From the NCBI GenBank assembly GCA_031373665.1, contig JANMMZ010000085.1, positions 1,389 through 65,388 on the forward strand: a stretch of DNA of 64,000 bases, given 5' to 3'. This document shows positions 30,557 through 45,792 of the stretch, one piece after another (positions within the stretch are counted from its first letter, which is position 1; every line of letters starts with the position of its first letter). Made by a program: the position numbers and the translations under genes. The notes beneath the pieces were generated by a model, which was not told where the DNA came from, made no database searches, and worked only from the letters and a program-made list of their open reading frames with translations. The DNA is from Saprospiraceae bacterium. GTDB lineage: Bacteria > Bacteroidota > Bacteroidia > Chitinophagales > Saprospiraceae.

Positions 30557-33016
30557 TTATTCGCTGCGCAGGCTCTTAACTGGATTGGCCAAAGCCGCTT
30601 TCACCGACTGGAAACCTACTGTCAAAAACGCAATCAATACCGCTGCCAAGCCAGCCACTGCGAATATCCACCACGAAATATCAATCCGATAAGCGAAGTC
30701 GGCAAGCCAATTATTCATAAAGTAATAAGCAATTGGCGAAGCAATTAGGATCGCAATGACAACTAATTGTAGGAAATCTTTGGCCAAAAGCCCCGTGATG
30801 CCCGCAATAGATGCACCTAGTACCTTTCGGATGCCTATTTCTTTGATTCGCTGCTCCGCAGCATAGGTAGCCAGACCAAACAAGCCAATGCAAGCGATGA
30901 AAATCGCCGCTATTGCCGCCCAAATCAACATGGCTTCACGGCGGGCATCTTCGGTATAAAAAAGAGCCAATTGCTGGTCGAGGTAATGGTATTCAAACAG
31001 TTCATCAGGATCAATTTTTGCTAAAATACCTTCCATCGCTTTTATGGTGGTGGCAGCGTCTTTTGATTCGATTCTTGAAGTATAATAATCAATGTTTTGA
31101 ACGGGATTTTGCCGATACGCCAAGACCAAAGGGGCAATTTTTTCTCTTAATGTCTGAAAATTGAAATCTTTTACTATCCCAATCACCCGGGCTTTAAATG
31201 CCTGATTGCCACGAAGCGGGACATACGTTCCGCCGTATGATGCAGCCGGAATTTCAATCAATTGATCAGATGGCTCTGTGATATTTAGGAGTTTGGCCGC
31301 CGTTTCATTTAATAAAACAGAGGAAGTATCGCCCAAACCGCTGAAATTTTTGCCTTTCAATAATTCTACCTCAAAGGTATTGGAAAAATGCTCATCCACG
31401 CCTAACAAATATGAAACTTTCTGTTCATCAGGATAGCCCATTTGCCTTATTTTAACACTGGGAATATTTTTCCATTCACCTGGCACCCGTGAAGTAGTGG
31501 ATACATTTTTTACATTGGGTATTTTTTCAAATTCTGAAACGATGGTGGAGGCTGCTCTTCTTATCGTGCCACTGTTGATATCCACGACCACCAAAAGGTC
31601 TTTATTGAACCCCAAATCTTTGCTGTTGACGAAACGAACTTGCAAAAACATCACGATGGTTGCAATGATCATAAATACAGATACCGAAAATTGGAAAACA
31701 ACCAAGCCTTTTCGCAAAGAAAAACCTGATTTGTCTTGAATTTTTAGACTTTTCAATAACATATTAGGGCTAAATTGGGAAAGCATCAATGCTGGATAAG
31801 AGCCTGATAATATACCTGTCAAGATAGCCACACTAAATGATGCAACCCAAATCCTATAATCGGTTGAAAAACCAAGTGAGAGTTGTTTGTTGGTAAATTC
31901 ATTGAAAAACGGGATCATTAAATTGACCAATAAAATAGCCAAAACAAAAGAAAATAGCGTTACCAATACTGATTCTACCAGAAATTGTGTTACCAATTGC
32001 CCTTTAAATGCACCCACAACCTTTTTTATCCCAATCTCTTTGCTGCGATTGGAGGCTTTAGCAGTAGTGAGATTCATATAGTTGATACAAGCAATCATCA
32101 ATACAAAAAGAGCGACCAACGCAAATATTTTCACGTACAAAAGATACCCTGTGCCGGCTCCCAATTGATTGAAGTTTCTGGCACCATCCGTAATGCTTTC
32201 GGAATGAAGGTGAACATCTTTGAGTGGCTGAAGGCTATAGGCCAATGATACACCCAGTGCTGGCTTATAGTTGGCATTGACCAATTGCCCTAGTTTTTGT
32301 GAAACAGCGACAAGGTTGGCATCTTTTCGGAGCAGCGTATAAACGGAATATTCGCTTGAGCCCCAATCGCTATTCACCTCATTTACATAACTGGAATCAG
32401 CATAATAGGTGCTTTCGGAATAAACAGAACTAAAATCAAAACTTGAATTCCGAGGATGATTTTTAAGCACTGCGGTAACAGTAAATGGTTGTTCATAGCC
32501 TTGCCATTTCAACGTCTTTCCGGCTACTTGTGTACTGCCAAAAAGTTGAAGGGCCAACGCTTCCACAATGACAATGGAGTTGGGAGCCGTCAAAGCCGTT
32601 TTGGGATTACCATCAAGGGCTTCAAAATCAAATATCTCCATTAAACCATTGTTGGCAACCGTGATTTCTTCATTCACTTTTTTCTGATCTGCCAAGTTTT
32701 CAAGCATATCTCTACCCCCTTGTGCCATGCGGGCTGTATTTTCAATTTCTCCAATACTGATTTTCGATGCTTCCGCCAGTTTGTAACTTGCTCCTGCTAT
32801 TTTAACATCCTCATCGGGTGATTTTCTGTGCTTGATAACACGGCATATTCGATCAGCATTGGTATGATGACTGTCGTAGGTAATCTCATCAATGACGTAA
32901 AGGCCTAATATCAAAAAACAGGCAAGACCGAAGGTCAGGCCAGCGATGTTTAGCACTGCGTGGAGTTTGTTTCTGAAGAGATTTCGGACAGCGATTTTTA
33001 GATAATTGGATACCAT
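30557..33016 (-). CDS. ABC-transporter permease, duplicated FtsX/MacB type (first gene of the array in transcription direction)
   Basis: Start set at the ATG at 33016 (MVSNYLKIAVRNLFRNKLHAVLNIAGL). Signatures SKEIGIKKVVGAF and IKEIGIRKVLGAS. Ends ANPVKSLRSE. Confidence 0.9.
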   Translation of the reverse strand: MVSNYLKIAVRNLFRNKLHAVLNIAGLTFGLACFLILGLYVIDEITYDSHHTNADRICRVIKHRKSPDEDVKIAGASYKLAEASKISIGEIENTARMAQGGRDMLENLADQKKVNEEITVANNGLMEIFDFEALDGNPKTALTAPNSIVIVEALALQLFGSTQVAGKTLKWQGYEQPFTVTAVLKNHPRNSSFDFSSVYSESTYYADSSYVNEVNSDWGSSEYSVYTLLRKDANLVAVSQKLGQLVNANYKPALGVSLAYSLQPLKDVHLHSESITDGARNFNQLGAGTGYLLYVKIFALVALFVLMIACINYMNLTTAKASNRSKEIGIKKVVGAFKGQLVTQFLVESVLVTLFSFVLAILLVNLMIPFFNEFTNKQLSLGFSTDYRIWVASFSVAILTGILSGSYPALMLSQFSPNMLLKSLKIQDKSGFSLRKGLVVFQFSVSVFMIIATIVMFLQVRFVNSKDLGFNKDLLVVVDINSGTIRRAASTIVSEFEKIPNVKNVSTTSRVPGEWKNIPSVKIRQMGYPDEQKVSYLLGVDEHFSNTFEVELLKGKNFSGLGDTSSVLLNETAAKLLNITEPSDQLIEIPAASYGGTYVPLRGNQAFKARVIGIVKDFNFQTLREKIAPLVLAYRQNPVQNIDYYTSRIESKDAATTIKAMEGILAKIDPDELFEYHYLDQQLALFYTEDARREAMLIWAAIAAIFIACIGLFGLATYAAEQRIKEIGIRKVLGASIAGITGLLAKDFLQLVVIAILIASPIAYYFMNNWLADFAYRIDISWWIFAVAGLAAVLIAFLTVGFQSVKAALANPVKSLRSE

Positions 33017-33266
33017 AGTCGTAATTTTTAGTAGCCAATATAGGTTCAATCATTAAGCCATTTTTGTAATATGCTGAATATCAAGGCTTTAAAATATTTA
33101 TTTGAAACTAGAAGTGTCCGAACGCGAACTAATGATGTTCGGTTTCGGACATGATGGAGGGGGGAGTGATGTTATCGTGGGTGAAGCCGTGGTATCCATT
33201 AATATTATGAGATTGAATCTATATTGCTAAAAATAGTTGGGGTAACATAAAAAAATCCCTAGATTA

Positions 33267-33297
33267 TTGCGAGTTATAGAAACTTGACATATATTTG
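33267..33297 (+). promoter_or_regulatory. Candidate Bacteroidetes-type promoter (-33 TTG, -7 TATATTTG)
   Basis: TTG at 33267-33269 and TATATTTG at 33290-33297, with a 20-nt spacer. This matches the TTTG-N(19-21)-TAnnTTTG consensus known for Bacteroidetes primary-sigma promoters. Confidence 0.35.
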
Positions 33298-33364
33298 TGC
33301 CATCAAAATATCATCACTTGAACCACTCGTACCAAATATCATTCAATCTTGCCTTGCATACAGT

Positions 33365-33406
33365 GCGGATACTTGGCCTTTGGGGCTGGGTATCCGCATT
33401 TTTTTT
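33365..33406 (+). terminator. Candidate intrinsic terminator or attenuator
   Basis: gcggatac (33365-33372) pairs with gtatccgc (33390-33397) around a 17-nt loop. It is followed by a and then eight T (33399-33406). Confidence 0.45.
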
Positions 33407-33566
33407 GGGGTTGTTTGGGTGGGTAGTTGCGGGAATCTGACTAGATTTGGTTGGATTGCCGCAACTGGACTGGTGATATGGCGGATTTTTGTGCAACTTG
33501 GGGTATGTGGGGCGTTGCGGGAAACCATAGTTAGACGTAACAAAAACAATATAAAAATAAATAAAC

Positions 33567-34646
33567 ATGGCGAAGTCAAATATTGAAAATGACGATATCA
33601 CTATCCTCAAACAGAAGGTTGATTTTTTAGAAAAGCGTCTAAGTAGTTATGAAGATATTAATAAAACACTATCAACGCAAGTTTTAGGAAAATGGAATGT
33701 AATTGGGCATACGACCAAATTTTTACAATGGGCAGCCGGAATCGTATTCGCTGTTACATTTGGACTATATTGGTTGGTTTATGATAATTTAAGAGATTTT
33801 AAAGAAGAATCAAATCAAAATAAGATAGAAATTACAAAATTGTCAAAACTTTCAAGTTCACTAATTTCTGTTACATCAGATTTACATACAATGAACCTTG
33901 ATTACAATCGTAAACAGTATGAAAGGGTTTTAGACAAAGCAAAAAAGTCTCTTGAAAAGATTGAAGAGGCAAAAAATAATTTATTTTTAAATAATTATGA
34001 CGAACTTAAAATGACATTACTATCTTTTAGGGGAGTAGCTTACTATCAAAAATACCTAGATGATAAAAAAAATAGCTACCCGAATAAAAACGACTTGATC
34101 AATATGATTTCAATTGGGGATACCATGGTAGCACTTAACCCGAATCATTGGAAGGGTTATCAAATTCGTGGGTTTGGCAACTGGGAGAACTCCTCTATAA
34201 ACGGAAGAATATCTAATGATAATGATTACAATAAAATAAAAAGTGATTTGGATAGGTCGGTACAACTAGGAGAAGAATTTAATACAAATACTATAAATTT
34301 AATCGAATTGTCATTTGTAAACTTTCGTTTTGATGAATCTAAATATTATATTACTATCTTTGAAGATAACTTTGGCAATAAGTTTCAAAGATATCGAGAT
34401 AAAAATGGTCAAGTCGCTTATTTATTTTATAAACACATGACTAACTACATTTTATCCAAAGACAAAAATGAACTTAAGGAATTAGATAAGAGCATTGCTG
34501 CTTTGAAAAATAAAGGAGTTCAAAATTTCGATAACACGAATTTAGAAGCATGGTTCATTAATGCCGAAGATAATCCCAATTTACTTCGAGGGATTAATCC
34601 AAATTTACTAAAAACCTGGCGCAAAAAAATATTTAAAACCCCCTAA
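33567..34646 (+). CDS. Hypothetical membrane-anchored protein with an N-terminal coiled-coil segment, one TM helix and a helical repeat-like body
   Basis: 359-aa ORF with AT-rich codon usage like the neighbouring R-M genes. One hydrophobic helix, FLQWAAGIVFAVTFGLYWLVY. I recognise no family. Confidence 0.6.
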   Translation: MAKSNIENDDITILKQKVDFLEKRLSSYEDINKTLSTQVLGKWNVIGHTTKFLQWAAGIVFAVTFGLYWLVYDNLRDFKEESNQNKIEITKLSKLSSSLISVTSDLHTMNLDYNRKQYERVLDKAKKSLEKIEEAKNNLFLNNYDELKMTLLSFRGVAYYQKYLDDKKNSYPNKNDLINMISIGDTMVALNPNHWKGYQIRGFGNWENSSINGRISNDNDYNKIKSDLDRSVQLGEEFNTNTINLIELSFVNFRFDESKYYITIFEDNFGNKFQRYRDKNGQVAYLFYKHMTNYILSKDKNELKELDKSIAALKNKGVQNFDNTNLEAWFINAEDNPNLLRGINPNLLKTWRKKIFKTP

Positions 34647-34997
34647 ACATCTAACAATGCACTGTCTAAAATGTCCGACTAAGCGCGTCCACGTAGCCAG
34701 TGCCCCCGTTAGTTAGCACCAACCATAGGGGCAGCCAAGCATAGTTCCAGATAATAATATTGATTTTCACCAGTTTTTAAGAATAGCGGACAGGCTGAGC
34801 GGAGACAGTAAAGCTTGTGCCCGCAGGCCCCCGCTCCAATTTTGGCAGGTAACCCGGCGCGGCATTGAATATAATATTGACTTACAAGTGGTACACTTTT
34901 CGTGATTAGTGGCAAAATGGAAAACTGTACCTCAACTTTTGACAATAACCAAATTATAAATTGTACCTTAGCAGCCTAAAAAATAAAGACATTCAGC

Positions 34998-36659
34998 ATG
35001 AGTGAAGATTATAAAAGGGGGTTGGAATCGCAACTTTGGAACATTGCCAATACGCTACGTGGCAAAATGAATGCAGACGAATTTCGTGACTACATTTTGG
35101 GTTTCATTTTCTATAAATACCTAAGCGAGAAAATGAACATTTTCGCTGACGAAATCTTGAAACAAGACAATATCAAGTTTCAAGAAATAACACCAAAGAC
35201 TACAGACGGGGCAGCATTTATTGAAGCCATAAAAGAAGAAGCCTTGGAAAAATTGGGCTACTTTCTAAGACCTGAAGAACTGTTTACAGAAGTTGCCAAA
35301 CGAGGAAATTTAATTACGAATGACGAATTAGAAGTGACGAATGAAAAAGAAGACTCAAAAAAAGTAATTCGTAATTCTCAATTCGTAATTAATGAAACCA
35401 ATTTCATTTTAGAAGATTTACAAAAAATCCTGATCAATATCCAGTTGAGTACCATGGGTACTGAAAGCGAAGAAGATTATGAGAATCTCTTTGAGGATAT
35501 GGATTTGAATAGTTCAAAATTAGGCAAAACTCCAGAGGCAAGAAATGCAATCATTGCAAAAGTGCTAACGCACCTTGACAAAATTGATTTCATGTTAGTT
35601 GATCAACATGGCCGTGCTCATCAACATGAAAATGATGTTTTGGGCGATGCTTACGAATATTTGATTGGACAATTTGCCAGTGGTGCAGGAAAAAAAGCAG
35701 GTGAATTTTATACACCGCAACAAGTCTCTACAATTTTGGCAAAAATAGTAACCACAGGAAAACAAAAACTAAAATCAGTTTATGACCCTACTTGTGGTTC
35801 GGGTTCTTTGTTGCTTCGTGTGGCAAGGGAGGTAGAAGATGTAAGTAATTTTTACGGACAAGAAATGAACCGTACTACTTACAACCTTGCCCGCATGAAT
35901 ATGATTTTGCACGGGGTGCATTACCGCCAATTTGATATTAAACAGGACGATACACTCGAACACCCACAGCATATTGACCAACAATTTGAAGCCATTGTAG
36001 CCAATCCACCATTTTCGGCTCAATGGAGTGCCAACCCATTGTTTACCAGTGACGACCGTTTTAGCCAATACGGACGACTTGCACCCAGTAGTAAAGCCGA
36101 CTTTGCTTTTGTGCAACACATGATTTACCATTTGGCAGACAATGGCACGATGGCCATTGTTTTGCCGCACGGTGCTTTGTTTAGAGGTGGTGCAGAGCAA
36201 CACATTCGAACGTATTTGATAGAAAACAAAAACTTTTTAGATGCCGTCATTGGCTTGCCAGCCAATATATTTTATGGTACCAGTATTCCAACGTGTATTT
36301 TGGTTTTCAAAAAGTGTAGAGAAAACCCTGATGACATTTTGTTCATAGATGCCAGCCAGCATTTTGAGAAAGTGAAAACCCAAAATGTTTTAAGGCCCAA
36401 AGACATTGATTTAATTATTGACACGTACCGTAAGAGAACGGAATTGCCAAAGTACAGCAAGAAAGCAACATTAGAGGAAATTGCTAAAAACGATTACAAC
36501 CTGAATATACCAAGGTATGTAGATACCTTTGAGGCAGAAGAAAATATAGACATTGAAGCCATCGCCACAGCACTCAAAGCATTGGATGAATCAATGGCGG
36601 ATACTGACAAAACCATTGCACAGTTTTGTAAGGAATTGGGTATTTCAACACCTTTTTAA
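34998..36659 (+). CDS. hsdM: Type I restriction-modification system, DNA methyltransferase subunit M
   Basis: 553 aa. AdoMet motif I VYDPTCGSGSLLL and catalytic motif IV IVANPPFSAQW. N-terminal HsdM_N-like LWNIANTLRGKMNADEFRDYILGFIFYKYLSE. Confidence 0.95.
   Translation: MSEDYKRGLESQLWNIANTLRGKMNADEFRDYILGFIFYKYLSEKMNIFADEILKQDNIKFQEITPKTTDGAAFIEAIKEEALEKLGYFLRPEELFTEVAKRGNLITNDELEVTNEKEDSKKVIRNSQFVINETNFILEDLQKILINIQLSTMGTESEEDYENLFEDMDLNSSKLGKTPEARNAIIAKVLTHLDKIDFMLVDQHGRAHQHENDVLGDAYEYLIGQFASGAGKKAGEFYTPQQVSTILAKIVTTGKQKLKSVYDPTCGSGSLLLRVAREVEDVSNFYGQEMNRTTYNLARMNMILHGVHYRQFDIKQDDTLEHPQHIDQQFEAIVANPPFSAQWSANPLFTSDDRFSQYGRLAPSSKADFAFVQHMIYHLADNGTMAIVLPHGALFRGGAEQHIRTYLIENKNFLDAVIGLPANIFYGTSIPTCILVFKKCRENPDDILFIDASQHFEKVKTQNVLRPKDIDLIIDTYRKRTELPKYSKKATLEEIAKNDYNLNIPRYVDTFEAEENIDIEAIATALKALDESMADTDKTIAQFCKELGISTPF
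35312..35392. mobile_element. 81-nt palindromic AATTACGAAT-family element embedded in frame in hsdM
   Basis: taattacgaat (35312-35322) and attcgtaatta (35382-35392) are exact reverse complements. Internal gacgaat/attcgta repeats are present. 81 nt is 27 codons, translated as ITNDELEVTNEKEDSKKVIRNSQFVIN. Confidence 0.8.
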
Positions 36660-36660
36660 T

Positions 36661-37255
36661 TGTCTGAATCACAGATTTAATGGATTTAATGATTTCACGG
36701 AATATGAACACAGCATTAAAATACAAGGACATAACCGAAAAAATATTAGGTGCTTCGTTTGAAGTGCATAAATTTTTAGGCAACGGCTTTCAAGAAGTCA
36801 TTTATCAGAGAGCATTGGCTTGGGAAATGAAGCAGAAAGGATTAGAATTTGCCAGAGAAATAGAACAAGATATTTTTTATAAGGATTTGCCAGAACCTAT
36901 TGGTACAAGAAGAGCAGATTTTGTAGTAGAGGGAAAAATTTTGGTGGAGTTAAAAGCCGTTATTCAATTAGAAGACGTGCATTTAGCACAAGCTTTGAAC
37001 TACCTCAAAGCCTATAAATTAGAAGTTGGTTTATTAATAAATTTTGGGAGCAAATCGCTCACTTTTAAACGTATTGTACTATGATAAAACAAAATAGTCA
37101 GCATCACGGATTGAAAAATAGTCAGCATCACGGATTAAAAAATAGTCAGAATCACGGATTAAACGGATTAAAGGATGACACTGATTTAAAATCGGAAAAT
37201 AATCAAAAAAAATCCGTGAAATCTGTGCAATCCTTTAAAATCCGTGATTCAGACA
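36661..37255. mobile_element. Composite of a GxxExxY ORF bracketed by TGTCTGAATCAC(G/A)GATT-family repeats
   Basis: The left end tgtctgaatcacagattt begins at 36661, 2 nt after the hsdM stop. The right side has three 24-nt tandem repeats (agtcag(c/a)atcacggatt at 37096, 37120 and 37144). It then carries a full element body ending aatccgtgattcagaca at 37239-37255, the reverse complement of the left end. Confidence 0.7.
36680..37084 (+). CDS. GxxExxY family protein (PD-(D/E)XK nuclease-like fold)
   Basis: Contains the GFQEVIY (G-x-x-E-x-x-Y) motif. Family-typical ILGASFEVHKFLG and ADFVVEGKILVELKAV (D...ExK-like) segments, and C-terminal LINFG. An alternative start is the ATG at 36704 (MNTALKYKD). 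The stop TGA overlaps the hsdS ATG as ATGA at 37081-37084. Confidence 0.85.
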   Translation: MDLMISRNMNTALKYKDITEKILGASFEVHKFLGNGFQEVIYQRALAWEMKQKGLEFAREIEQDIFYKDLPEPIGTRRADFVVEGKILVELKAVIQLEDVHLAQALNYLKAYKLEVGLLINFGSKSLTFKRIVL

Positions 37256-38532
37256 ACATTCCAGTATTGCGTTTTCCTGAGTTTAATGAGGAATGGAAAG
37301 AAAAGAAGTTGGGGGAAGTAGCGACCAATAAGTCAGGTAAATATAATCCTGAAAAAGAACGAGAATCTGTGAAATGTATTGAATTAGAACATTTATCTTC
37401 GGATTCAAGCCAATTACTGGGATATATTGATGGAAAAAATTCAGGAAGTATTAAGAATAAATTTGATAAAGGCGATGTGCTTTTTGGAAAATTAAGACCT
37501 TATCTAAAAAAGTATTTACTAGCACCTTTTGAAGGAGTTTGTTCGTCAGAAATTTGGGTATTGAAAGGGCTGAATATTTCAAATGACTTTTTATTTAGGA
37601 TAGTGCAAACAGATTCATTTATTGATTTAGCAAATCAATCAAGTGGCTCTAAAATGCCAAGAGCAGATTGGAATGTTGTTGAAAATGGAATATTCTCTTT
37701 CCCCACCCTACCCGAACAAACCAAAATCGCCACCTTCCTCACCGCAGTAGATGAAAAAATCCAAGCCCTCAAAAAGAAAAAAGGCCTTTTAGAAGATTAC
37801 AAAAAAGGGGTGATGCAAAAACTCTTCTGTCTGAATCACGGATTAGATGGATTTAAAGATGACACAGATTTTGACAATGAATCCGTGGAATCTGCGCAAT
37901 CCTTAAAAATCCGTGATTCAGACAATGTACGCTTCAGACAAAAAGATGGCAGCAACTTTCCAGATTGGGAAGTGAAGAAGTTGGGGGAGGTGGCAAAAAG
38001 GAAAACATTGAAAAATAAAGAAGGGAATACAAATGTTCTTACAATTTCTGCACAATATGGATTGATAAGCCAATTAGAATTTTTCAATAAATCTGTTTCT
38101 GCGAAAGATGTAACAGGGTATTATTTATTAGAAAATGGAGATTTTGCATACAATAAAAGTTATTCAAATGGTTATCCAATGGGTGCAATTAAGTGTTTAA
38201 ATAGATATGGAAAAGGTGTAGTTTCAACATTGTATATCTGTTTTAAATTTAATGAAGTGATAAATAATTCATTTATGGAGCATTTTTTTGAAACAGGTAT
38301 TCATAATAGTGAAATTGAAAAAGTAGCACAGGAAGGAGCAAGAAATCATGGTTTGTTGAATATTGGATTAGAAGATTTTTTCAATATTGCAATATCAATC
38401 CCCTGCCTCAAAGAACAAACCGCCATCGCCAATTTCCTATCCGCCCTAGACGAAAAAATAAACCATACGCAAACCCAAATAACCCAAACCGAAACGTGGA
38501 AAAAGGGGCTTTTACAAAAAATGTTTTGTTAA
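37081..38532 (+). CDS. hsdS: Type I restriction-modification system, specificity subunit S
   Basis: Two target-recognition domains. Each is preceded by (L)RFPEF..W..KKLGEV or FPDWEVKKLGEV and followed by the conserved helices LPEQTKIATFLTAVDEKIQALKKK and LKEQTAIANFLSALDEKINHTQ. The first ~60 codons and codons ~250-282 are translations of the repeat element. Confidence 0.9.
   Translation: MIKQNSQHHGLKNSQHHGLKNSQNHGLNGLKDDTDLKSENNQKKSVKSVQSFKIRDSDNIPVLRFPEFNEEWKEKKLGEVATNKSGKYNPEKERESVKCIELEHLSSDSSQLLGYIDGKNSGSIKNKFDKGDVLFGKLRPYLKKYLLAPFEGVCSSEIWVLKGLNISNDFLFRIVQTDSFIDLANQSSGSKMPRADWNVVENGIFSFPTLPEQTKIATFLTAVDEKIQALKKKKGLLEDYKKGVMQKLFCLNHGLDGFKDDTDFDNESVESAQSLKIRDSDNVRFRQKDGSNFPDWEVKKLGEVAKRKTLKNKEGNTNVLTISAQYGLISQLEFFNKSVSAKDVTGYYLLENGDFAYNKSYSNGYPMGAIKCLNRYGKGVVSTLYICFKFNEVINNSFMEHFFETGIHNSEIEKVAQEGARNHGLLNIGLEDFFNIAISIPCLKEQTAIANFLSALDEKINHTQTQITQTETWKKGLLQKMFC
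37828..37924. mobile_element. 97-nt solo MITE-like copy of the TGTCTGAATCACGGATT-family element, in frame inside hsdS
   Basis: tgtctgaatcacggatt (37828-37844) and aatccgtgattcagaca (37908-37924) are exact reverse complements. The body aligns with 37144-37255. It is translated as CLNHGLDGFKDDTDFDNESVESAQSLKIRDSDN, at the junction between the central conserved helix and TRD2. Confidence 0.85.
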
Positions 38533-38544
38533 AATTAATTACAA

Positions 38545-39336
38545 ATGAAGAATTACAAATTACAAATAATACCCACTGATTTGCTCCCTGTTTATTTGGA
38601 GCAAGTGCCTAAGGGTTTGCAGAAAGCATTTGATGCCTTGAAGGACGCAGAGATTTCTACTGATACTTTTAGTTTTTACACTTCGGTATCAGCTATGGCA
38701 TCGAGCAAAATTGAGGGCGAACAAATGGAAATTGACAGCTACATCAAACACAAAATGTTGAATATTGAGTATCTGGAAGACTTGGTTGAAAAACCAAACG
38801 ATTTGTATAATGCTTATCTGTTTGCCCAAAAAAATGAACTCACCGAAAAAAATTTTTTAGAAACCCATAAATTATTGTCAGCACATCTTTTAGCCCCCAA
38901 TAAAAGAGGCGTTTGCAGAACAGGCAATATGGTGGTAATGGAGCATAAAACATTCCGCATACAATATGAAGCTGCCTTGGGGAGCGAAGTAAAACCCTTG
39001 TTTGCCAGACTTTGGAAAGATATTGAGCAACTAAAAAAAGAAAGATTAAGCATAGAAGAAACATTCTTTTTTGCATCATTCATTCATATTGTTTTTGTAA
39101 ATATTCACCCTTTTGAAGATGGAAACGGAAGAGCAGGAAGATTATTAGAAAAATGGTTTTTGGCTCAAATGCTGGGCGAAAAAGTTTGGTATATACAAAG
39201 TGAATTGAATTATTATAAAAACGTAAACAACTATTACAAAAATCTGAACAGGCTCGGAATTTTTTACGAAAAATTGGATTACAACCAAGCTATTCCATTT
39301 CTATTAATGCTACCAAGTTCAATTACGAATATTTAA
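38545..39336 (+). CDS. Fic family protein (AMPylase-type fold)
   Basis: Fic motif HPFEDGNGRAGR, matching HxFx(D/E)GNGRxxR. An upstream SSKIEG matches the [S/T]xxxE[G/N] inhibitory-helix motif. The last codons (SSITNI*) are encoded by the first AATTACGAAT repeat. Confidence 0.9.
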   Translation: MKNYKLQIIPTDLLPVYLEQVPKGLQKAFDALKDAEISTDTFSFYTSVSAMASSKIEGEQMEIDSYIKHKMLNIEYLEDLVEKPNDLYNAYLFAQKNELTEKNFLETHKLLSAHLLAPNKRGVCRTGNMVVMEHKTFRIQYEAALGSEVKPLFARLWKDIEQLKKERLSIEETFFFASFIHIVFVNIHPFEDGNGRAGRLLEKWFLAQMLGEKVWYIQSELNYYKNVNNYYKNLNRLGIFYEKLDYNQAIPFLLMLPSSITNI

Positions 39337-39372
39337 TTACGAATGTTTAATTACGAATATTTAATTACGAAT
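39321..39372. repeat. Four AATTACGAAT repeats with a 14-nt period, upstream of the four-helix-bundle ORF
   Basis: aattacgaat occurs at 39321, 39335, 39349 and 39363. Confidence 0.9.
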
Positions 39373-39379
39373 CACAAAA

Positions 39380-39805
39380 ATGAAAACTGACAATATTATA
39401 CAACAAAAAAATTATGCTTTTGCAGTGAGAATTGTAAAAGTGTATCAATATTTATGTGACGAGAAAAAAGAGTTTACTTTAAGCAAACAGCTTTTAAGAT
39501 GCGGCACATCGGTTGGTGCAAATGTTGAAGAAGCCATTGGTGGGCAAAGTGAAAAGGATTTTTTTGCCAAACTAACCATTTCATACAAAGAAGCAAGGGA
39601 AACACATTATTGGATACGGTTATTGACAGACACTGGTTATTTAACAAAAGAGCAAAGCGAAAGTCTGTTGAATGACATAACAGAAATTCAAAAAATAATT
39701 GGAAGTATTCAACGCACAATCAAATCTCGTAATTCAAAATTAATTACGAATGACGAATTCAAAATTACGAATGACGAATTTAAAATTACGAATGAAAAAT
39801 CATAA
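39380..39805 (+). CDS. Four-helix-bundle protein (family formerly called 23S rRNA intervening-sequence protein)
   Basis: Family-typical AFAVRIVKVYQYL..., LSKQLLRCGTSVGANVEEAIGGQSEKDFFAKLTISYKEARETHYWIRLL. The C-terminal LITNDEFKITNDEFKITNEKS is encoded by AATTACGAATGACGAATT repeats. Confidence 0.85.
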   Translation: MKTDNIIQQKNYAFAVRIVKVYQYLCDEKKEFTLSKQLLRCGTSVGANVEEAIGGQSEKDFFAKLTISYKEARETHYWIRLLTDTGYLTKEQSESLLNDITEIQKIIGSIQRTIKSRNSKLITNDEFKITNDEFKITNEKS

Positions 39806-39923
39806 TAAAAATATAAAAACTATAACTCAATTAAAATACAAAATCGTAATTCGTAATTCACAATTCGTAATTAAAAATTCGTAATTCGTAATTAAAAATT
39901 CGTAATTAAAAATTCGTAATTAA
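39727..39923. mobile_element. Palindromic AATTACGAAT / ATTCGTAATT repeat block between the four-helix-bundle ORF and hsdR
   Basis: aattacga at 39743, 39763 and 39784 forms the left arm, with a ~20-nt period. Seven tcgtaatt copies lie between 39844 and 39921 and form the right arm, in inverse orientation. The last repeat abuts the hsdR ATG at 39924. Confidence 0.8.
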
Positions 39924-42869
39924 ATGAGCAGACAGTCGGAACAAATATTAGAAGAACAACTCATTGCCCAGTTGCAAAAATTGGGGTACGGCTATATTGT
40001 CATCAATAGTGAAAAAGATGTATTGCTCAACCTCAAAGGGCAATTGGAAAAACACAACCAATCCGCCCTAACTAAAACAGGCAATGCACAATTTACCCAA
40101 ACAGAGTTTGAGAAGATTTTAAACCTGTTGAGCAAAGGGTCTGTTTTTGAAAAATCAAAAATGCTTCGCCAAAAGCAACACCTTGTTCGGGAGCATGGAG
40201 ACAACCTGTATTTTGAATTTTTGAATACGGAGCATTGGTGTCAAAATGAATATCAAGTAACCAACCAAGTAAGCCAGGAAGGAAAATTCAAAAACCGTTA
40301 TGATGTAACCATTCTCATCAACGGTTTGCCATTGGTGCAAATAGAACTGAAGCGCAGAGGCTTAGAATTGAAAGAAGCGTTCAATCAAATCAACCGTTAT
40401 CAACGGCATTCGTTTGGTGCAAACGCTGCTTTGTTTCAGTATGTTCAAATCTTCATTATCAGCAATGGCGTAAATACAAAGTACTACGCCAACAACCGCA
40501 ACCAAAGTTTCAAACAAACTTTCTATTGGACAGATGCAGCAAACAAAAGGGTTTCTAATATACTAAATGGCTTTACGGATACATTTTTAGAGCCTTGCCA
40601 CTTGAGCAAAATGATATGCAAGTACATTGTGCTGAACGAAGCCTATAAAATTCCAATGGTACTTCGTCCGTATCAGTTCTATGCTGTGGAAGCTTTAATA
40701 GAAAGAGTAAAGTCACAAGGCCTTACGAGTCAACCCAAAAACGGTTATATATGGCATACCACAGGTTCGGGTAAAACCCTCACAAGTTTTAAAGCCAGTC
40801 AGATTTTAATGGCTTTGCCACAAGTTCATAAAGTGGTTTTTGTGGTGGATAGAAAAGATTTGGATTACCAAACGACTAAAGAATTCAACAGTTTTCAAGA
40901 AGGTTGTATTGACGGAACAGACAATACGCAAAACTTAGTAAAGCAATTTACAGGCACTTATGTTGACAAAAAAGGAGAGGCCAAAAATTCCAAACTCATA
41001 GTAACCACCATTCAAAAACTCAATACTGCAATCAGCAAATTGAAGTATGAGGCTAAAATGGCTGAACTGAAAGACAAACGCATCATTTTTATTTTTGACG
41101 AGTGCCACAGAAGCCAATTTGGCGATACTCACAAAAGAATAAAGGACTTTTTCAATAATGCTCAATTGTTTGGGTTTACAGGCACTCCCATTTTTGCAGA
41201 CAATGCTGCTAAAAACGAACACGGCAAGCGAACCACCAAAGATTTATTTGAAGACTGTTTGCATAAGTATGTAATTACAGATGCTATCAAAGACGAAAAT
41301 GTATTGAAGTTTTCGGTTGAATATGTAGGCAGATATAAGCATAAAGACGGACGAGAGACCAATATTGATATTGAGGTAGAAGACATTGACACTAAAGAGT
41401 TGATGGAAGATGAAACCCGTTTAGAAAAAATAACAGATTACATTATTGCACACCACAACCGCAAAACACACAGCCGAGCGTTTACGGCTATGTTTTGTAT
41501 CAATAATGTGCCTACGCTTATCAAATACGTTGATTTATTCAAAAAGAAAAAAGCCGAAGGATTACACAATTTGAACATTGCAACCATATTCAGTTATGGG
41601 GCAAATGAAGATGATGCAGATGCCAACGGCTTTATCAACTTTGAACAAGATTTTGACAATGTTGATTTGAATCTAGTGGCAGAATCAAAGCCCGAATATA
41701 AAATCAATTCGCATAGCAGAGACAAGTTAGAAGAATTTATAGGTGATTACAACAAACTATTTGGTGATAATTTCACGACCAAAGACAGCCAAAGTTTTTA
41801 CAACTATTACAACGACATTTCAAAGAAAGTCAAGGAACGCAAAATTGACATTTTAATAGTGGTAAATATGTTCCTTACGGGTTTTGACAGCCCAACATTG
41901 AACACCATGTATGTGGACAAAAACCTACGATATCACGGACTAATACAAGCATATAGCCGAACCAACAGAATTTTAAACGAGCAAAAAAGCCAAGGAAATA
42001 TTGTTGCGTTTCGCAACCTCAAAAACCGCACAGACGAAGCGATTACTTTATTTAGCAACAAAGAAGCGATTGAAGTAATCATCATGAAACCGTATGAAGA
42101 CTACACAGCCAAGTTTGACGAAGCCTTTGAACATTTAATTTCTTTGACACCAACTACAGACAGCGTTGATGATTTACAAACAGAAGATGACGAACTTGAA
42201 TTCATAAAGGCTTTCAGAGATTTGATGAGAATAAAAAATGTTCTCACTGCATTTTCAGACTTCAAATGGGAAGACTTGGAAATGACCGAGCAACAATTTG
42301 AAGATTTTAAAAGCAAGTATCTCGACCTTTACGACAAAGTAAAAAGCAACCACCAAAAAGAGAAGGTTTCCATTTTAGAAGATGTGGATTTTGAGTTGGA
42401 ATTAATTCACCGTGACGAAATAAATGTTGCTTATATCATTCAACTTTTAATCAAACTAAAAGCACAAGCTCAAAAAGACACGACAAAAGCAGAACAAGAA
42501 ATATTCAACTTGTTAAGCACCGAAACGACTTTACGTAGCAAACGAGAGTTGATAGAAAAATTTATACAAGAGAATTTGCCAGTAATTGTGGATACAGACG
42601 AAGTTGCACCGGCGTTCGACAAATATTGGAACGAAGAACAGCAAAAGGCATTTTCTAAATTGGTGATTGAAGAAAGCCTTTCACCCGACAAGACAGAAAA
42701 ATTAATTGAAGACTATTTGTTTGCAGAAAGGCCACCATTAAGAGACGAAGTTTTAGAACTCATTGAAGGCGAAAAACCAAGTTTGCTTCAAAGAAAAAAA
42801 CTGGGTGAAAGAATTTTAAAACGTATCATGGACTTTGTAGAAACGTTTATAAACGGAATGGCAGGATAG
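39924..42869 (+). CDS. hsdR: Type I restriction-modification system, endonuclease/translocase subunit R
   Basis: 981 aa. N-terminal nuclease-like region, helicase motif I WHTTGSGKTLTSF, motif II IFIFDECHRSQ, and later motifs TGTPIF and VNMFLTGFDSP. Confidence 0.95.
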   Translation: MSRQSEQILEEQLIAQLQKLGYGYIVINSEKDVLLNLKGQLEKHNQSALTKTGNAQFTQTEFEKILNLLSKGSVFEKSKMLRQKQHLVREHGDNLYFEFLNTEHWCQNEYQVTNQVSQEGKFKNRYDVTILINGLPLVQIELKRRGLELKEAFNQINRYQRHSFGANAALFQYVQIFIISNGVNTKYYANNRNQSFKQTFYWTDAANKRVSNILNGFTDTFLEPCHLSKMICKYIVLNEAYKIPMVLRPYQFYAVEALIERVKSQGLTSQPKNGYIWHTTGSGKTLTSFKASQILMALPQVHKVVFVVDRKDLDYQTTKEFNSFQEGCIDGTDNTQNLVKQFTGTYVDKKGEAKNSKLIVTTIQKLNTAISKLKYEAKMAELKDKRIIFIFDECHRSQFGDTHKRIKDFFNNAQLFGFTGTPIFADNAAKNEHGKRTTKDLFEDCLHKYVITDAIKDENVLKFSVEYVGRYKHKDGRETNIDIEVEDIDTKELMEDETRLEKITDYIIAHHNRKTHSRAFTAMFCINNVPTLIKYVDLFKKKKAEGLHNLNIATIFSYGANEDDADANGFINFEQDFDNVDLNLVAESKPEYKINSHSRDKLEEFIGDYNKLFGDNFTTKDSQSFYNYYNDISKKVKERKIDILIVVNMFLTGFDSPTLNTMYVDKNLRYHGLIQAYSRTNRILNEQKSQGNIVAFRNLKNRTDEAITLFSNKEAIEVIIMKPYEDYTAKFDEAFEHLISLTPTTDSVDDLQTEDDELEFIKAFRDLMRIKNVLTAFSDFKWEDLEMTEQQFEDFKSKYLDLYDKVKSNHQKEKVSILEDVDFELELIHRDEINVAYIIQLLIKLKAQAQKDTTKAEQEIFNLLSTETTLRSKRELIEKFIQENLPVIVDTDEVAPAFDKYWNEEQQKAFSKLVIEESLSPDKTEKLIEDYLFAERPPLRDEVLELIEGEKPSLLQRKKLGERILKRIMDFVETFINGMAG

Positions 42870-43228
42870 CCCATGCTTTTGGTGGCACATTTGCAAAGCC
42901 GCACGACCTGTCCCGCTGCTGCGGGAATGAACTAGGCAAATAGATAAATCGCTCAACTTTGCACAGATGTCCATCCCTCCTAAACGTCGGTACGGGCAGA
43001 GAGGCAACCAATATATCTTACTAAGTTCTACCCAATCTGCAAGCAGCCCAATTTGTAAATAGGGTTTTGTTTCAGGTTGCGCCACCACCTATTAATTTTG
43101 AGCAGGCTTCGCCCATCACTGTATCAGTTATCAAATTAAATCGGATGTTTTTTCAATGAACTAATTATTTTTTTCAAGGCTTTTCAAGGAAACATAGCCA
43201 AAACTAACATTAAAATTTTAAAATTAAC

Positions 43229-44362: not shown

Positions 44363-44368
44363 TACAAA

Positions 44369-44415
44369 AAGAGGCCGTCACATAAGTTCAACTTACATGA
44401 CGGCCTCTTTTTGTT
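44369..44415 (+). terminator. Intrinsic terminator
   Basis: aagaggccgtca (44369-44380) pairs with tgacggcctctt (44398-44409), followed by a T-run. It lies immediately after the stop at 44362. Confidence 0.75.
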
Positions 44416-44647
44416 AACCCTCTTCTGCAACAGTCCTACAACCCATCAAAACAAATCTTCCCGTTTTGGTGGAATGTCTTTGTTGCTCAACACAACCTAG
44501 TGGCGGGCAGGATTAGGCGATACTTGCCATATTTGCCCTGCACTCAATGAAACAAATTTTTATAGGAAAACCATGATTCTTTAAATAGGCATCGTTTATA
44601 CTTCATAAAATATATGTATATTTGCCCTTCATAAAAATATTAGTAAC

Positions 44648-45703: not shown

Positions 45704-45792
45704 GCGTTAGGGCAATGTCGTTAAGTTAATTTTATTTTGTCACTTTAAAAAATCAGGAATACTTGAATCTGGTATTTTTTATCTTGCTTTTC

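What the first reader, a model, noticed from the sequence alone, without database searches (positions are those of the whole stretch)
37828..37924. ORF-less 97-nt palindromic element sitting in frame in the middle of hsdS, an RPE-like translated MITE
Seen: there are exact 17-nt terminal inverted repeats, and the body is homologous to 37144-37255. It lies precisely between the central conserved helix (..GVMQKLF) and the TRD2 entry motif (FRQKDGSNFPDWEVKKLGEV). The hsdS frame stays open through it and gains CLNHGLDGFKDDTDFDNESVESAQSLKIRDSDN. The N-terminal copy is translated in the same frame and yields the related peptide (N)HGLNGLKDDTDLK...SVKSVQSFKIRDSDN.

Established: the classical precedent is the Rickettsia palindromic elements, which insert in frame into protein-coding genes.

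Inference: the element is selected to be translation-neutral in at least one frame, and it targets the symmetric inter-domain joints of HsdS. The added linker may even alter TRD spacing and hence the gap length of the recognition sequence.
Basis: partly seen in the sequence, partly recalled or inferred. Interest (0 to 1): 0.8.

Follow-up and report, generated by a model that had tools for sequence, protein, structure and literature searches.

The report
Translated palindromic repeat inside hsdS
A 97-base hairpin-forming repeat from a family found in many bacterial phyla sits inside a restriction-enzyme specificity gene without breaking its reading frame, adding a floppy 33-residue loop to the protein; such events are known elsewhere, but I found no description of this repeat family or of its link to a small nuclease gene.

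Summary
Window 37828-37924 is a 97-nt palindrome with perfect 17-nt termini (TGTCTGAATCACGGATT / AATCCGTGATTCAGACA). It is read in frame in a 483-aa hsdS. The nearest HsdS homologues (400 aa, 79% identical) have only Ser-Gln-Glu at that point.

The termini recur in more than 120 genome stretches from many phyla. The arms are arrays of roughly 9-11-nt xCACGGATT units. Some copies carry a GxxExxY (PD-(D/E)XK) gene in the loop, as rRNA intervening sequences carry a four-helix-bundle gene. The window's own GxxExxY gene lies among such arms, and the right-hand arm supplies the HsdS N-terminus.

Related elements start at the same nucleotide of the helix/TRD2 joint in at least five other hsdS genes. 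An unrelated palindrome family occupies both HsdS positions in another.

Being stop-free is not a family trait: 7 of 100 orientation-frames are open in the frame used here, and 31 of 50 copies are closed in all six.

AlphaFold models put the insert in a disordered loop. The coiled-coil helices have the same length with and without it, so a change in TRD spacing is not supported.

Verdict: an insertion that persists as a linker. How it moves is unknown.

The parts
37828..37924 (+). ORF-less 97-nt palindromic element (the finding). It has perfect 17-nt termini and arms built of xCACGGATT / AATCCGTGx units. It is translated in frame as HsdS residues 250-282 (codons 37828-37926).
   Evidence: Absent from the closest homologues.
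37144..37255 (+). Second complete copy (112 nt) of the same element, translated in the same frame as part of the HsdS N-terminal extension. Its last base is the first base of the Asn59 codon, just before the conserved IPVLRFPEF.
   Evidence: The N-terminal extension is absent from the 400-aa homologues.
37091..37162 (+). Three tandem 24-nt copies of the left terminus (AAAATAGTCAG[C/A]ATCACGGATT..), giving NSQHHGLK x3 in the HsdS N-terminus. The third copy overlaps the start of the 37144-37255 element.
   Evidence: (family D2).
36661..36707 (+). Left-arm-only copy, 81% identical to the left half of the mid-gene element. It starts 1 nt after the hsdM stop codon and runs into the annotated start of the GxxExxY ORF.
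   Evidence: (D1, I2, I3).
36680..37084 (+). GxxExxY / PDDEXK_3 gene lying between the left arm at 36661 and the right arm at 37239-37255. The domain starts at residue 17, so the real start is probably Met9 at 36704. Its stop overlaps the hsdS ATG (ATGA).
   Evidence: The same arrangement of left arm, ORF and right arm is seen in L087, L080 and L038.
37081..38532 (+). hsdS host gene, 483 aa: N-terminal extension, TRD1, CR1 helix, insert, TRD2, CR2 helix.
34998..36659 (+). hsdM, upstream gene of the operon.
35310..35392 (+). In-frame ORF-less hairpin of a second family (ATTACGAAT units) inside hsdM. It encodes ..LITNDELEVTNEKEDSKKVIRNSQFVIN.. and is 15 residues longer than the loop in an 83%-identical HsdM.
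39318..39924 (+). Second ORF-carrying hairpin element. The 61-nt inverted arms (39318-39378 and 39864-39924, ATTACGAAT units) flank the four-helix-bundle (23S_rRNA_IVP / TIGR02436) gene 39380-39805. The right arm ends at the hsdR start codon.
38531..38567 (+). Arm-like run of ATTACAAAT units that begins at the end of the hsdS stop codon (38530-38532) and precedes the Fic gene.
   Evidence: (D1).

Best explanation
The 97-nt segment is a non-autonomous copy of a widespread family of palindromic repeat elements.

Anatomy of the family (shown):
- Conserved termini, (T)TGTCTGAATCAC[G/A]GATT ... AATC[C/T]GTGATTCAGACA(A).
- Each arm is an array of three or four roughly 9-11-nt subrepeats: xCACGGATT on the left and its complement on the right.
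- Longer relatives carry a small PD-(D/E)XK nuclease gene (GxxExxY, TIGR04256) in the hairpin loop. This is the architecture of the 23S rRNA intervening sequences that carry a four-helix-bundle gene.

What happened in this operon (shown):
- A GxxExxY gene lies among such arms between hsdM and hsdS, and the right-hand arm now provides the HsdS N-terminus.
- An ORF-less copy sits exactly between the central coiled-coil helix (CR1) and TRD2, replacing Ser-Gln-Glu.

Why it persists (inferred): this copy is stop-free in the host frame, keeps the frame, and lies at a structurally permissive joint. It is translated into an acidic 33-residue loop (9 Asp/Glu, 3 Lys/Arg) that is predicted to be disordered and leaves the coiled coil unchanged. 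No benefit to the restriction system is needed to explain it.

How it got there (inferred, and the weakest step): copying from the neighbouring GxxExxY-bearing copy. This could be driven by that nuclease or by an unidentified enzyme acting in trans, and/or by recombination between hsdS alleles through the conserved flanks.
For: Insertion:
- The closest HsdS homologues (P0002, P0006; 400 aa; 79% identity in the alignment) read GVMQKLF-SQE-LRFK where the window has 33 extra codons. They also lack the N-terminal 50-odd residues.

Family:
The taxa include Bacteroidota, Poribacteria, Desulfobacterota, Ignavibacteria, Patescibacteria, Spirochaetota, Chloroflexota and Planctomycetota.
- Copies from other phyla are about 79% identical to the mid-gene copy over its full length.
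- Several genomes contribute 2-4 stretches each.

ORF-carrying relatives:
- GxxExxY genes 80-91% identical to the window's lie next to or between the arms in L005, L016, L042, L074, L080 and L087. L038 carries a more divergent, broken copy.
- A clean left arm, ORF and right arm of about 480 nt is seen in L087, L080 and L038.

Unit type goes with the locus and its cargo gene in three hsd loci:
- Window: CACGGATT.
- L124: TAGGATT, GxxExxY 64% identical.
- L145: GTGATT, GxxExxY 58% identical.

Recurrence at the joint:
- 10 of the 120 best HsdS hits, counting the window, carry an insert of at least 28 aa there.
- The DNA of L002, L123 and L125 starts at the same nucleotide (TTY|TGTC[T/A]..), and L124 starts one base off (TTT|TTGTCAGA..). 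L145 has a decayed left end. All five end ..CAGACA[A/G]|TTG.
- Folding energies of the window, L124, L123, L002, L145 and L125 copies run -44.8, -27.1, -26.3, -25.5, -20.1 and -7.6 kcal/mol, a series of progressive decay.

Tolerance:
- In the AlphaFold models the core has pLDDT above 90, while residues 1-56 and 252-281 are below 50 and coil.
- The helices are 210-249 and 443-481 in the window protein, and 157-196 and 360-398 in insert-free P0002. Lengths are the same.
- The model matches solved HsdS structures.

Filter on these copies rather than design of the family:
- 7 of 100 orientation-frames of other copies are open in the frame used here, and both window copies are open only in that frame.

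Parallel case in the same operon:
- An in-frame hairpin of a second family sits in hsdM, and the ORF-bearing form of that family (four-helix-bundle gene) lies 4 kb away.
Against: - No target-site duplication, and no filled/empty pair at near identity. The best empty allele is only 79% identical, so the insertion event itself is not caught.
- No known transposase in the window. GxxExxY has no known function (PMC3424549).
- Only about 8% of the stretches with the terminus have a GxxExxY gene close enough for the window's protein to detect within the stretch held.
- The window holds copies only inside the RM locus. That fits arrival together with a low-GC island as well as it fits local spread.
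- The identical boundaries in different hsdS genes, always with Ser-Gln-Glu missing, could come from one old insertion passed on by recombination rather than from repeated targeting.
- Within an element the two arms do not co-vary. The hairpin as such may therefore not be the selected feature.
- Translation, stability and activity of the protein are untested. The hsdS start codon is assumed.
Confidence: 0.72

Rival explanations
1. The elements are kept because they serve the restriction system at the DNA level. As portable patches of homology at every module boundary (after hsdM, before TRD1, before TRD2, after hsdS), they would promote exchange or deletion of TRD-CR modules and so change specificity. 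For example, recombination between the two direct copies at 37144-37255 and 37828-37924 would leave a half-size hsdS.
For: - The two copies are direct repeats with a 46-nt stretch 91-93% identical.
- hsdS aligns to itself as two collinear [element-TRD-CR] modules.
- L124 shows the same occupation of every hsdS boundary by one element type.
- P0015 and P0018 share TRD1, CR1 and the element but have different TRD2s.
- From established knowledge: half-size HsdS proteins can dimerise and give new, symmetric specificities.
Against: - No silent hsdS cassettes and no recombinase in the window.
- Most family members lie outside RM loci.
- HsdS genes recombine through their conserved regions without any such element. 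The P0015/P0018 crossover lies downstream of the element, in the conserved TRD2 entry motif.
- An unrelated palindrome family sits at the same positions. That points to tolerance of the site rather than to a dedicated function.
Confidence: 0.12
2. The hairpin acts in the mRNA. It would be a processing or stabilising structure, an RNase III site like an rRNA intervening sequence or a REP-like barrier to 3' exonucleases. It would set the relative amounts of HsdM, HsdS and HsdR, or delay restriction after the system enters a new host.
For: - A very stable RNA hairpin: -44 kcal/mol, z -9.4.
- Hairpins of two families lie at or near every gene boundary of the operon.
- The architecturally similar rRNA intervening sequences are cut by RNase III (PMC4990558).
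Against: - No compensatory covariation between the arms.
- No U-tract, and no excess of promoter-like or terminator-like sites.
- No Rfam family matches.
- Cleavage inside the hsdS coding sequence would destroy the message for a full-length HsdS whose frame has been kept open.
- The older joint copies have lost most of their pairing while the frame stays open.
Confidence: 0.1
3. The acidic loop itself has been taken over for a protein function. It might act as a DNA-mimicking or auto-inhibitory tether near the DNA-binding face, or as a spacer that changes the geometry of the two TRDs.
For: - The peptide has 9 Asp/Glu against 3 Lys/Arg.
- Inserts at the joint in other HsdS proteins are also acidic in their first half.
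- The frame is kept open even in old, decayed copies.
Against: - The acidity follows from reading GAT-rich arms in this frame.
- Insert sequences and lengths differ widely (28-41 aa).
- The segment is predicted disordered with very low confidence, and helix lengths are unchanged.
- Most homologues work without any insert (65 of the 79 hits that could be parsed).
Confidence: 0.05
4. The segment is a native HsdS linker, or an assembly artefact, and not an inserted element.
For: None beyond the open reading frame.
Against: - Absent from the nearest homologues.
- The same 17-nt termini and the same body occur in over a hundred unrelated genome stretches.
- Independent contigs carry related elements at the same joint.
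Confidence: 0.01

Closest known systems
Rickettsia palindromic elements (RPEs)
   Same: Palindromic repeats of about 100-150 bp with no ORF of their own, inserted in frame into protein-coding genes and translated as extra peptide segments that the fold tolerates (review PMC10969869).
   Different: - An unrelated sequence family, with no sequence similarity claimed or found.
- Different and very broad taxonomic range, against one genus for RPEs.
- For RPEs, in-frame insertion into genes is frequent and several families are intrinsically open. Here nearly all copies lie outside genes and most carry stops.
- This family has ORF-carrying relatives with a GxxExxY gene.
Prokaryotic MITEs in general (Correia, ERIC, Coxiella QMITE and others)
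   Same: Small size, terminal inverted repeats, many copies, no transposase, and occasional in-frame fusions with host ORFs (PMC10969869, PMC5896051).
   Different: - No target-site duplication.
- No parent insertion sequence encoding a transposase was found.
- The termini are conserved at 17 of 17 bases across phyla, whereas MITEs are usually specific to a lineage.
- The arms are arrays of subrepeats.
23S rRNA intervening sequences (IVS), with or without the four-helix-bundle 'S23p' ORF
   Same: - A stem made of inverted repeats, with short forms of about 100 nt and long forms of 400-750 nt that carry a small ORF in the loop.
- Tandem short repeats next to the ORF (GACAGAT x3 in Coxiella).
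- Sporadic distribution that suggests horizontal transfer, and lower GC than the host (PMC4990558).
- The window has a PF05635 four-helix-bundle gene inside just such a hairpin.
   Different: - Not in rRNA. None of the loci carrying the terminus contains an rRNA gene.
- The cargo of this subfamily is a PD-(D/E)XK protein (PF13366), not PF05635.
- Here the element is translated as part of a protein. An IVS is cut out of the rRNA by RNase III.
REP / REPIN elements mobilised by RAYT (Y1) transposases
   Same: Hairpin-forming repeats without target duplications, mostly outside genes and often just after stop codons. RAYT-like Y1_Tnp genes sit in related hsd loci (L001, L002, L123).
   Different: - The elements are longer and have a different anatomy, with 17-nt termini and subrepeat arrays.
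- No RAYT gene in the window or in the genome stretches that carry the terminus.
- REP families are specific to a species, whereas this family spans phyla.

Membership tests
MITE (miniature inverted-repeat transposable element) | Small (under about 300 bp), with no coding capacity for a transposase | tested here: met
   97 nt. The only open frame is the host's.
MITE (miniature inverted-repeat transposable element) | Terminal inverted repeats | tested here: met
   17 nt, 100% complementary.
MITE (miniature inverted-repeat transposable element) | Multiple dispersed copies | tested here: met
   More than 120 genome stretches, with several genomes contributing 2-4 each. In this window there are only 3 copies, all in one locus.
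MITE (miniature inverted-repeat transposable element) | Target-site duplication flanking the element | tested here: not met
   No direct repeat at the 52 complete copies. There is only a preference for T at -1 (40 of 52) and A at +1 (34 of 52). In hsdS, 9 nt of the target are replaced.
MITE (miniature inverted-repeat transposable element) | A related autonomous element with the same termini that encodes a transposase | tested here: inconclusive
   Longer relatives with the same termini exist, but their ORF is a 125-134-aa GxxExxY PD-(D/E)XK protein of unknown function.
Rickettsia palindromic elements | Membership of one of the RPE sequence families of Rickettsia | not tested
   No RPE sequence was available to compare. 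The host range (Bacteroidota, Poribacteria and others) and the absence of any Rfam or literature match argue against membership.
Rickettsia palindromic elements | Frequent in-frame insertion into unrelated protein-coding genes | tested here: not met
   None of 50 complete copies elsewhere lies in a convincing ORF. In-frame use was seen only in hsdS genes, and for the second family in hsdM.
23S rRNA intervening sequence | Located in a 23S rRNA helix and removed by RNase III | tested here: not met
   The element lies in a protein-coding gene. No conserved rRNA motif occurs in the window or in any locus held at that point (L001-L125). RNase III cleavage cannot be tested with these tools.
23S rRNA intervening sequence | Inverted-repeat stem, with an optional small ORF (PF05635 family) in the loop | tested here: met
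   The stem is met. The loop ORF in relatives is PF13366. The neighbouring second family carries PF05635.
REP/REPIN-RAYT system | A RAYT (Y1 transposase) gene associated with, and flanked by, the repeats | tested here: not met
   No homologue of the RAYT-like proteins in the window or in L003-L122.
Type I R-M specificity subunit (host gene) | Two TRDs alternating with two conserved helices that form a coiled coil; Methylase_S domains; hsdM and hsdR as neighbours | tested here: met
   Pfam PF01420 matches twice. The AlphaFold fold matches 7vru_C, 1yf2, 3okg and 2y7c. hsdM and hsdR flank the gene.

The most novel reading that the evidence does not exclude
GxxExxY (PD-(D/E)XK) and four-helix-bundle genes are the resident genes, possibly the mobility or homing factors, of one superfamily of palindromic mobile elements built of subrepeat arrays. 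The classical 23S rRNA intervening sequences would then be only its rRNA-borne branch. Each protein variant would recognise its own subrepeat type. The elements would cross phylum boundaries, settle flush against gene and domain ends (restriction genes, histidine-kinase tails) and, where the frame allows, become new linkers in proteins.
Probability: 0.3. Interest if true: 0.8.

Novelty: new variant of a known kind. Interest (0 to 1): 0.55.

Why it matters
In-frame palindromic insertions are a known way for proteins to gain segments, so the event itself is not new. Three things would matter if they hold up.

1. A non-coding repeat of about 100 nt keeps its 17-nt termini, and about 75-80% identity over its length, across bacterial phyla. 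That implies a conserved partner protein or very active horizontal spread.
2. The repeat is physically tied to GxxExxY and four-helix-bundle genes. Both are large families of unknown function, and the second is known from rRNA intervening sequences whose origin has been open for decades. This suggests a concrete experiment: does the protein bind or cut its own arms?
3. The boundaries of HsdS domains take up palindromes of several families. This gives a natural map of where Type I specificity subunits tolerate insertions, which is useful for engineering them.

Tried and rejected
- Rfam, at gathering thresholds and then permissively, on the window and on 18 Poribacteria loci. Only sub-threshold microRNA-like hairpin matches came up.
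- Literature searches by sequence string, family names and concept. No description of this family was found.
- Protein database searches with the element-encoded peptides (42 aa and 69 aa). These results are uninformative because the word index is not suited to short queries.
- A metagenome DNA scan for the junction of CR1 and the element. It gave one hit, of a type already known, so there is no unbiased count of open against closed joint copies.
- Viral contigs: 17 hits, 16 of them chance matches in coding sequence (ATG-TCT-GAA-TCA-CAG-ATT) and one real element. Phage carriage is therefore not indicated.
- RNAalifold on 38 copies failed to recover the long stem, because length variation in the loops misaligns the arms. 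It was replaced by an own-arm against swapped-arm test, which showed no covariation.
- RAYT as the mobilising enzyme. RAYT-like genes are present in three related hsd loci but in none of the loci that carry the terminus.
- The idea that the element supplies the hsdS stop codon, as it does for histidine kinases. The hsdS genes of L001, L002 and the window end GTATAG, GTGTAA and TGTTAA, none of which derives from the TGTCTGA terminus.
- Integron attC sites, group I/II introns, terminators and promoters. None has matching features (and comparison of the sequences).
Full report
**1. The observation**

Its ends are a perfect 17-nt inverted repeat, TGTCTGAATCACGGATT ... AATCCGTGATTCAGACA. The whole 97 nt fold into one long imperfect hairpin: -44.0 kcal/mol as RNA with z -9.4, and -22.7 kcal/mol as DNA with z -7.2.

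The 17-mer, allowing up to 3 mismatches, occurs 7 times in the 64-kb window against 0.14 expected by chance. All 7 occurrences lie between 36661 and 37924. They resolve into three things:
- The mid-gene element.
- A second complete copy at 37144-37255. It is 76% identical overall, and its right arm is 91-93% identical. Two extra tandem 24-nt copies of the left terminus precede it.
- A left-arm-only copy at 36661-36707.

The ORF 37081-38532 (483 aa) is an HsdS. It has two Methylase_S stretches, and hsdM lies upstream and hsdR downstream. The ORF reads through both complete copies in the same frame. The mid-gene copy gives residues 250-282, CLNHGLDGFKDDTDFDNESVESAQSLKIRDSDN.

**2. It is an insertion**

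The best database homologues are 400-aa proteins from Saprospiraceae-type assemblies, 79% identical in the alignment. They lack both the N-terminal 50-odd residues and the internal segment.

At the DNA level the insert-free allele L001 reads ...CAAAAACTGTTT|TCGCAGGAG|TTGAGGTTTAAA, that is F-SQE-LRFK. The window reads ...CAAAAACTCTTC|TGTCTGAA...TTCAGACA|ATGTACGCTTCAGA. The element plus 2 nt replaces the nine bases for Ser-Gln-Glu. There is no target duplication.

The RM island is GC-poor, with 31-37% GC over 34-44 kb against mostly 40-50% in the rest of the window. Ordinary housekeeping genes flank it, and there is no transposase or integrase among them.

**3. The family**

- *Taxa.* Many Bacteroidota (Saprospiraceae, Chitinophagales, Sphingobacteriales, Cytophagales, Flavobacteriaceae) and many Poribacteria. 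Also Desulfobacterota, Ignavibacteria/Chlorobiota, Patescibacteria, Spirochaetota, Chloroflexota, Planctomycetota, Verrucomicrobiota, Fibrobacterota and others. A few hits are chance matches.
- *Anatomy.* In almost all stretches the terminus is followed by the same periodic body. The consensus is TGTCTGAATCACGGATTAAACGGATTAAAnGATnACACnGATTTT - loop - AAAATCCGTGnAATCCnTTAATCC..AAATCCGTGATTCAGACA.
- *Similarity.* Copies from an Ignavibacteria MAG and from a MAG labelled Bacillota are as similar to the mid-gene copy (79%) as the window's own second copy is (76%).
- *Flanks.* Fifty-two complete short copies (74-204 nt) were extracted, two of them the window's. They show no target duplication, only a preference for T before and A after the element.
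- *Viruses.* The family is practically absent from viral contigs, with 1 real copy among 17 hits.
- *Prior description.* No Rfam family matches. I found no paper that contains the sequence or describes the family.

**4. Long relatives carry a nuclease gene**

GxxExxY genes (TIGR04256, Pfam PDDEXK_3) that are 80-91% identical to the window's lie next to the arms in six stretches. The hosts include a spirochaete, Hydrotalea flava, Balneola, a Sphingobacteriales MAG, a Cyclobacteriaceae MAG and a Saprospiraceae MAG. A seventh stretch, L038, has a more divergent, broken copy.

In L087, L080 and L038 the gene sits exactly in the loop: a left arm of about 50 nt, the ORF, then a right arm of about 50 nt, about 480 nt in all. 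The window has the same layout:
- The left arm begins 1 nt after the hsdM stop.
- The GxxExxY ORF follows.
- A right arm ends at the Asn59 codon of HsdS, just before the conserved IPVLRFPEF.
- Extra left-terminus copies lie in between.
- The GxxExxY stop overlaps the hsdS ATG (ATGA).

The 97-nt element is therefore best read as the ORF-less form of this longer element.

This is the architecture of 23S rRNA intervening sequences: a stem of inverted repeats, tandem short repeats next to the ORF, a small ORF in the loop, and short and long forms (PMC4990558). The same operon contains a second example with the classical IVS gene family. The four-helix-bundle gene 39380-39805 (PF05635 / TIGR02436) is flanked by 61-nt inverted arms built of ATTACGAAT units, and the right arm ends at the hsdR start codon. 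An ORF-less hairpin of that second family lies in frame inside hsdM (35310-35392). There the window protein is 15 residues longer than an 83%-identical HsdM.

**5. The arms look like arrays of a sequence motif, not a co-evolving stem**

If base pairing were the selected feature, the variable positions of the two arms of one element should match each other better than they match the arms of other elements. They do not.
- An element's own right arm is the best partner for its left arm in 0-2 of 38 cases.
- Permutation p values are 0.76-0.98.
- Interior hairpin energy is -15.5 kcal/mol with an element's own arm against -16.3 with a swapped arm.

The pairing potential comes from the shared subrepeat. 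This is what one expects of repeated binding sites for a protein, as at transposon ends, rather than of a structured RNA.

In three hsd loci that also hold a GxxExxY gene, the subrepeat type of the arms next to that gene equals that of the element at the hsdS joint:

| Locus | Subrepeat type | GxxExxY identity to the window's |
|---|---|---|
| Window | CACGGATT | 100% |
| L124 | TAGGATT | 64% |
| L145 | GTGATT | 58% |

This is suggestive of a cognate pairing or of local spread, but three loci are too few to decide.

**6. Why this place in HsdS**

Among the 120 best HsdS hits, 10 including the window carry an insert of at least 28 residues at the CR1/TRD2 joint. Sixty-five have the short form, and the rest could not be parsed by my pattern.

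The DNA of five further occupied alleles (L002, L123, L124, L125, L145) shows elements of the same superfamily. The first three keep recognisable TGTC[T/A]GA left termini. L002, L123 and L125 begin directly after the Phe codon. L124 begins one base off, and L145 has a decayed left end. All five end ..CAGACA[A/G] directly before the Leu codon of LRFK.

Their subrepeat types differ: CATGATT, CAGGATT, TAGGATT and GTGATT. Their folding energies, together with the window's copy, fall from -44.8 to -7.6 kcal/mol. Old copies thus lose their pairing while the frame stays open.

The N-terminal position, just before N/x-P-x-LRFPEF, is also used repeatedly in frame (window, L124, L146). In L094 the element lies untranslated 18 nt upstream of the hsdS start.

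In L144 a completely different palindrome (GACGCGATTAATCGCGTC, read as DAINRV) sits in frame at both positions. The two boundaries are thus places where palindromes of several kinds persist. The use of the same nucleotide, always with loss of Ser-Gln-Glu, has two possible explanations that I cannot separate: sequence-specific targeting, or spread of one old occupied allele by recombination through the conserved flanks.

**7. Open frames are the exception**

Of 50 complete copies in other genomes, 2 in the forward and 5 in the reverse orientation are stop-free in the TGT-CTG-AAT frame. Thirty-one are closed in all six frames. None lies inside a convincing gene. Both window copies are open in that frame only. 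The simplest reading is a filter: closed copies at this site would destroy hsdS and are not seen in full-length proteins.

**8. Effect on the protein**

AlphaFold models were built from an 89-sequence alignment.

| | Window HsdS (483 aa) | Insert-free P0002 (400 aa) |
|---|---|---|
| Central helix | 210-249 (40 residues) | 157-196 (40 residues) |
| C-terminal helix | 443-481 (39 residues) | 360-398 (39 residues) |
| Low-confidence coil (pLDDT below 50) | 1-56 and 252-281 | 1-3 |

The core of the window model has pLDDT mostly above 90. The model superposes on solved HsdS structures (7vru_C, 1yf2_A, 3okg, 5ybb_D, 2y7c_A).

From established knowledge of Type I systems, the spacer of the recognition sequence depends on the length of the coiled coil. 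The models give no reason to expect a change. This is a prediction, not a measurement.

**9. Mechanism and how sure I am**

Shown:
- The segment is an insertion relative to its homologues.
- It belongs to a large family spread across phyla.
- Relatives carrying a GxxExxY gene exist.
- The HsdS joint and N-terminal position are used repeatedly.
- The family is not intrinsically open.

Predicted from models only:
- The insert is a disordered loop, and the helices are unchanged.

Inferred:
- The copy is a selfish or neutral passenger kept because it does no harm (about 0.7).
- It derives from the neighbouring GxxExxY-bearing copy.
- GxxExxY, or an unknown enzyme acting in trans, moves it (about 0.3 for GxxExxY).

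Rivals with some support:
- The elements serve as homology patches for shuffling or deleting TRD modules (0.12).
- The hairpins act on the mRNA (0.10).
- The acidic loop has been recruited for a protein function (0.05).

**10. Comparison and novelty**

The element works like an RPE or an in-frame MITE, which the 2024 MITE review treats as a known phenomenon (PMC10969869). It fails one MITE criterion (target duplication) and is inconclusive on another (a transposase-encoding parent). It is not in rRNA, so it is not an IVS in the strict sense, although its architecture and the company it keeps are IVS-like.

I rate it a new variant of a known kind. The event is ordinary. The family, with its conservation across phyla and its tie to GxxExxY and four-helix-bundle genes, is the interesting part.

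Noticed in passing
window 35310-35392 (inside hsdM 34998-36659): A second in-frame, ORF-less hairpin of a different family (ATTACGAAT units) encodes LITNDELEVTNEKEDSKKVIRNSQFVIN. The window HsdM is 15 residues longer here than an 83%-identical HsdM (L001). RNA fold -19 kcal/mol, z -3.0.
   Followed up: partly
window 39318-39924: The four-helix-bundle (23S rRNA IVS protein family) gene sits in the loop of a hairpin with 61-nt arms, 80% complementary, made of ATTACGAAT repeats. It lies between Fic and hsdR, and the right arm ends at the hsdR ATG. The C-terminus of the ORF (ITNDEFKITNDEFKITNEKS) reads through further copies of the same ATTACGAAT units (39743-39793).
   Followed up: partly
L114 6500-7350; L087 1576-2260; L049 4650-5130; L080 7100-7700; also L005, L074, L024, L075: The same element family, with or without GxxExxY, sits flush against the end of Bacteroidota histidine-kinase genes, and its terminus TGTCTGA supplies Val plus the stop codon. 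It is followed within 0-4 nt by a second, diverged copy (75-85% identical) of the last 85-90 nt of the kinase gene (SYDIVKAHGG...LP). L114 shows three stacked tails. This may be a long target duplication, or copying between paralogues through homology. It is unexplained.
   Followed up: partly
L004 5529-6401; L082 5209-5649; L021 6512-6810; L097 134-: Tandem arrays of the element. L004 has eight copies about 131 nt apart with conserved 23-nt spacers. L082 has five termini 106 nt apart. L021 has three copies 105 nt apart. L097 has a long run of the AAAAGATTACACAGATT subrepeat alone.
   Followed up: no
L144 2501-3802 (P0087): An unrelated palindrome family (GACGCGATTAATCGCGTC, read as DAINRV) is in frame at both HsdS positions: the N-terminus, and the CR1/TRD2 joint as a double copy (-44.5 kcal/mol). 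The same palindrome interrupts a RAYT-like gene upstream of hsdS in L002 and follows hsdS there.
   Followed up: partly
L001 7247-8065; L002 5415-6011; L123 2897-3505: RAYT-like Y1 transposase genes (NKYRI..W.Y ... HxH motif region) are embedded in related Type I R-M loci next to hsdS. None is in the window. The L001 copy has a long, low-complexity Pro/Ser/Ile-rich repeat insert.
   Followed up: partly
window 37091-37162: The left terminus of the element is triplicated as exact-register 24-nt tandem repeats, giving NSQHHGLK x3 at the HsdS N-terminus. L146 also has an extra upstream copy of the left terminus before its N-terminal element.
   Followed up: no
window about 32000-46000: The region around the R-M island is GC-poor (31-38% over 32-44 kb, against mostly 40-50% elsewhere in the window). 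The island (33.5-43 kb) is bounded by MacB/FtsX-type permease genes on one side and Reg_prop and FGE-sulfatase genes on the other. It contains a 359-aa ORF (33567-34646) with no Pfam or NCBIfam match and a Fic-family gene (38545-39336) between hsdS and the four-helix-bundle gene.
   Followed up: partly
L001 about 4057-5677: The hsdM of the closest insert-free locus aligns to the window's HsdM in two reading frames that switch near residue 65. This is a frameshift or a sequencing error in that MAG.
   Followed up: no
Poribacteria loci, for example L023, L032, L099, L115: In Poribacteria the terminus is often preceded by a conserved GAGGGGTG[C/T]..CAT[A/C]AT[A/T]AT. Read on the other strand this is the start of a divergent gene (ATGAGCACCCCTC...) a few bases from the element. 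Many of these copies are left arms followed by unrelated sequence, not complete hairpins.
   Followed up: no
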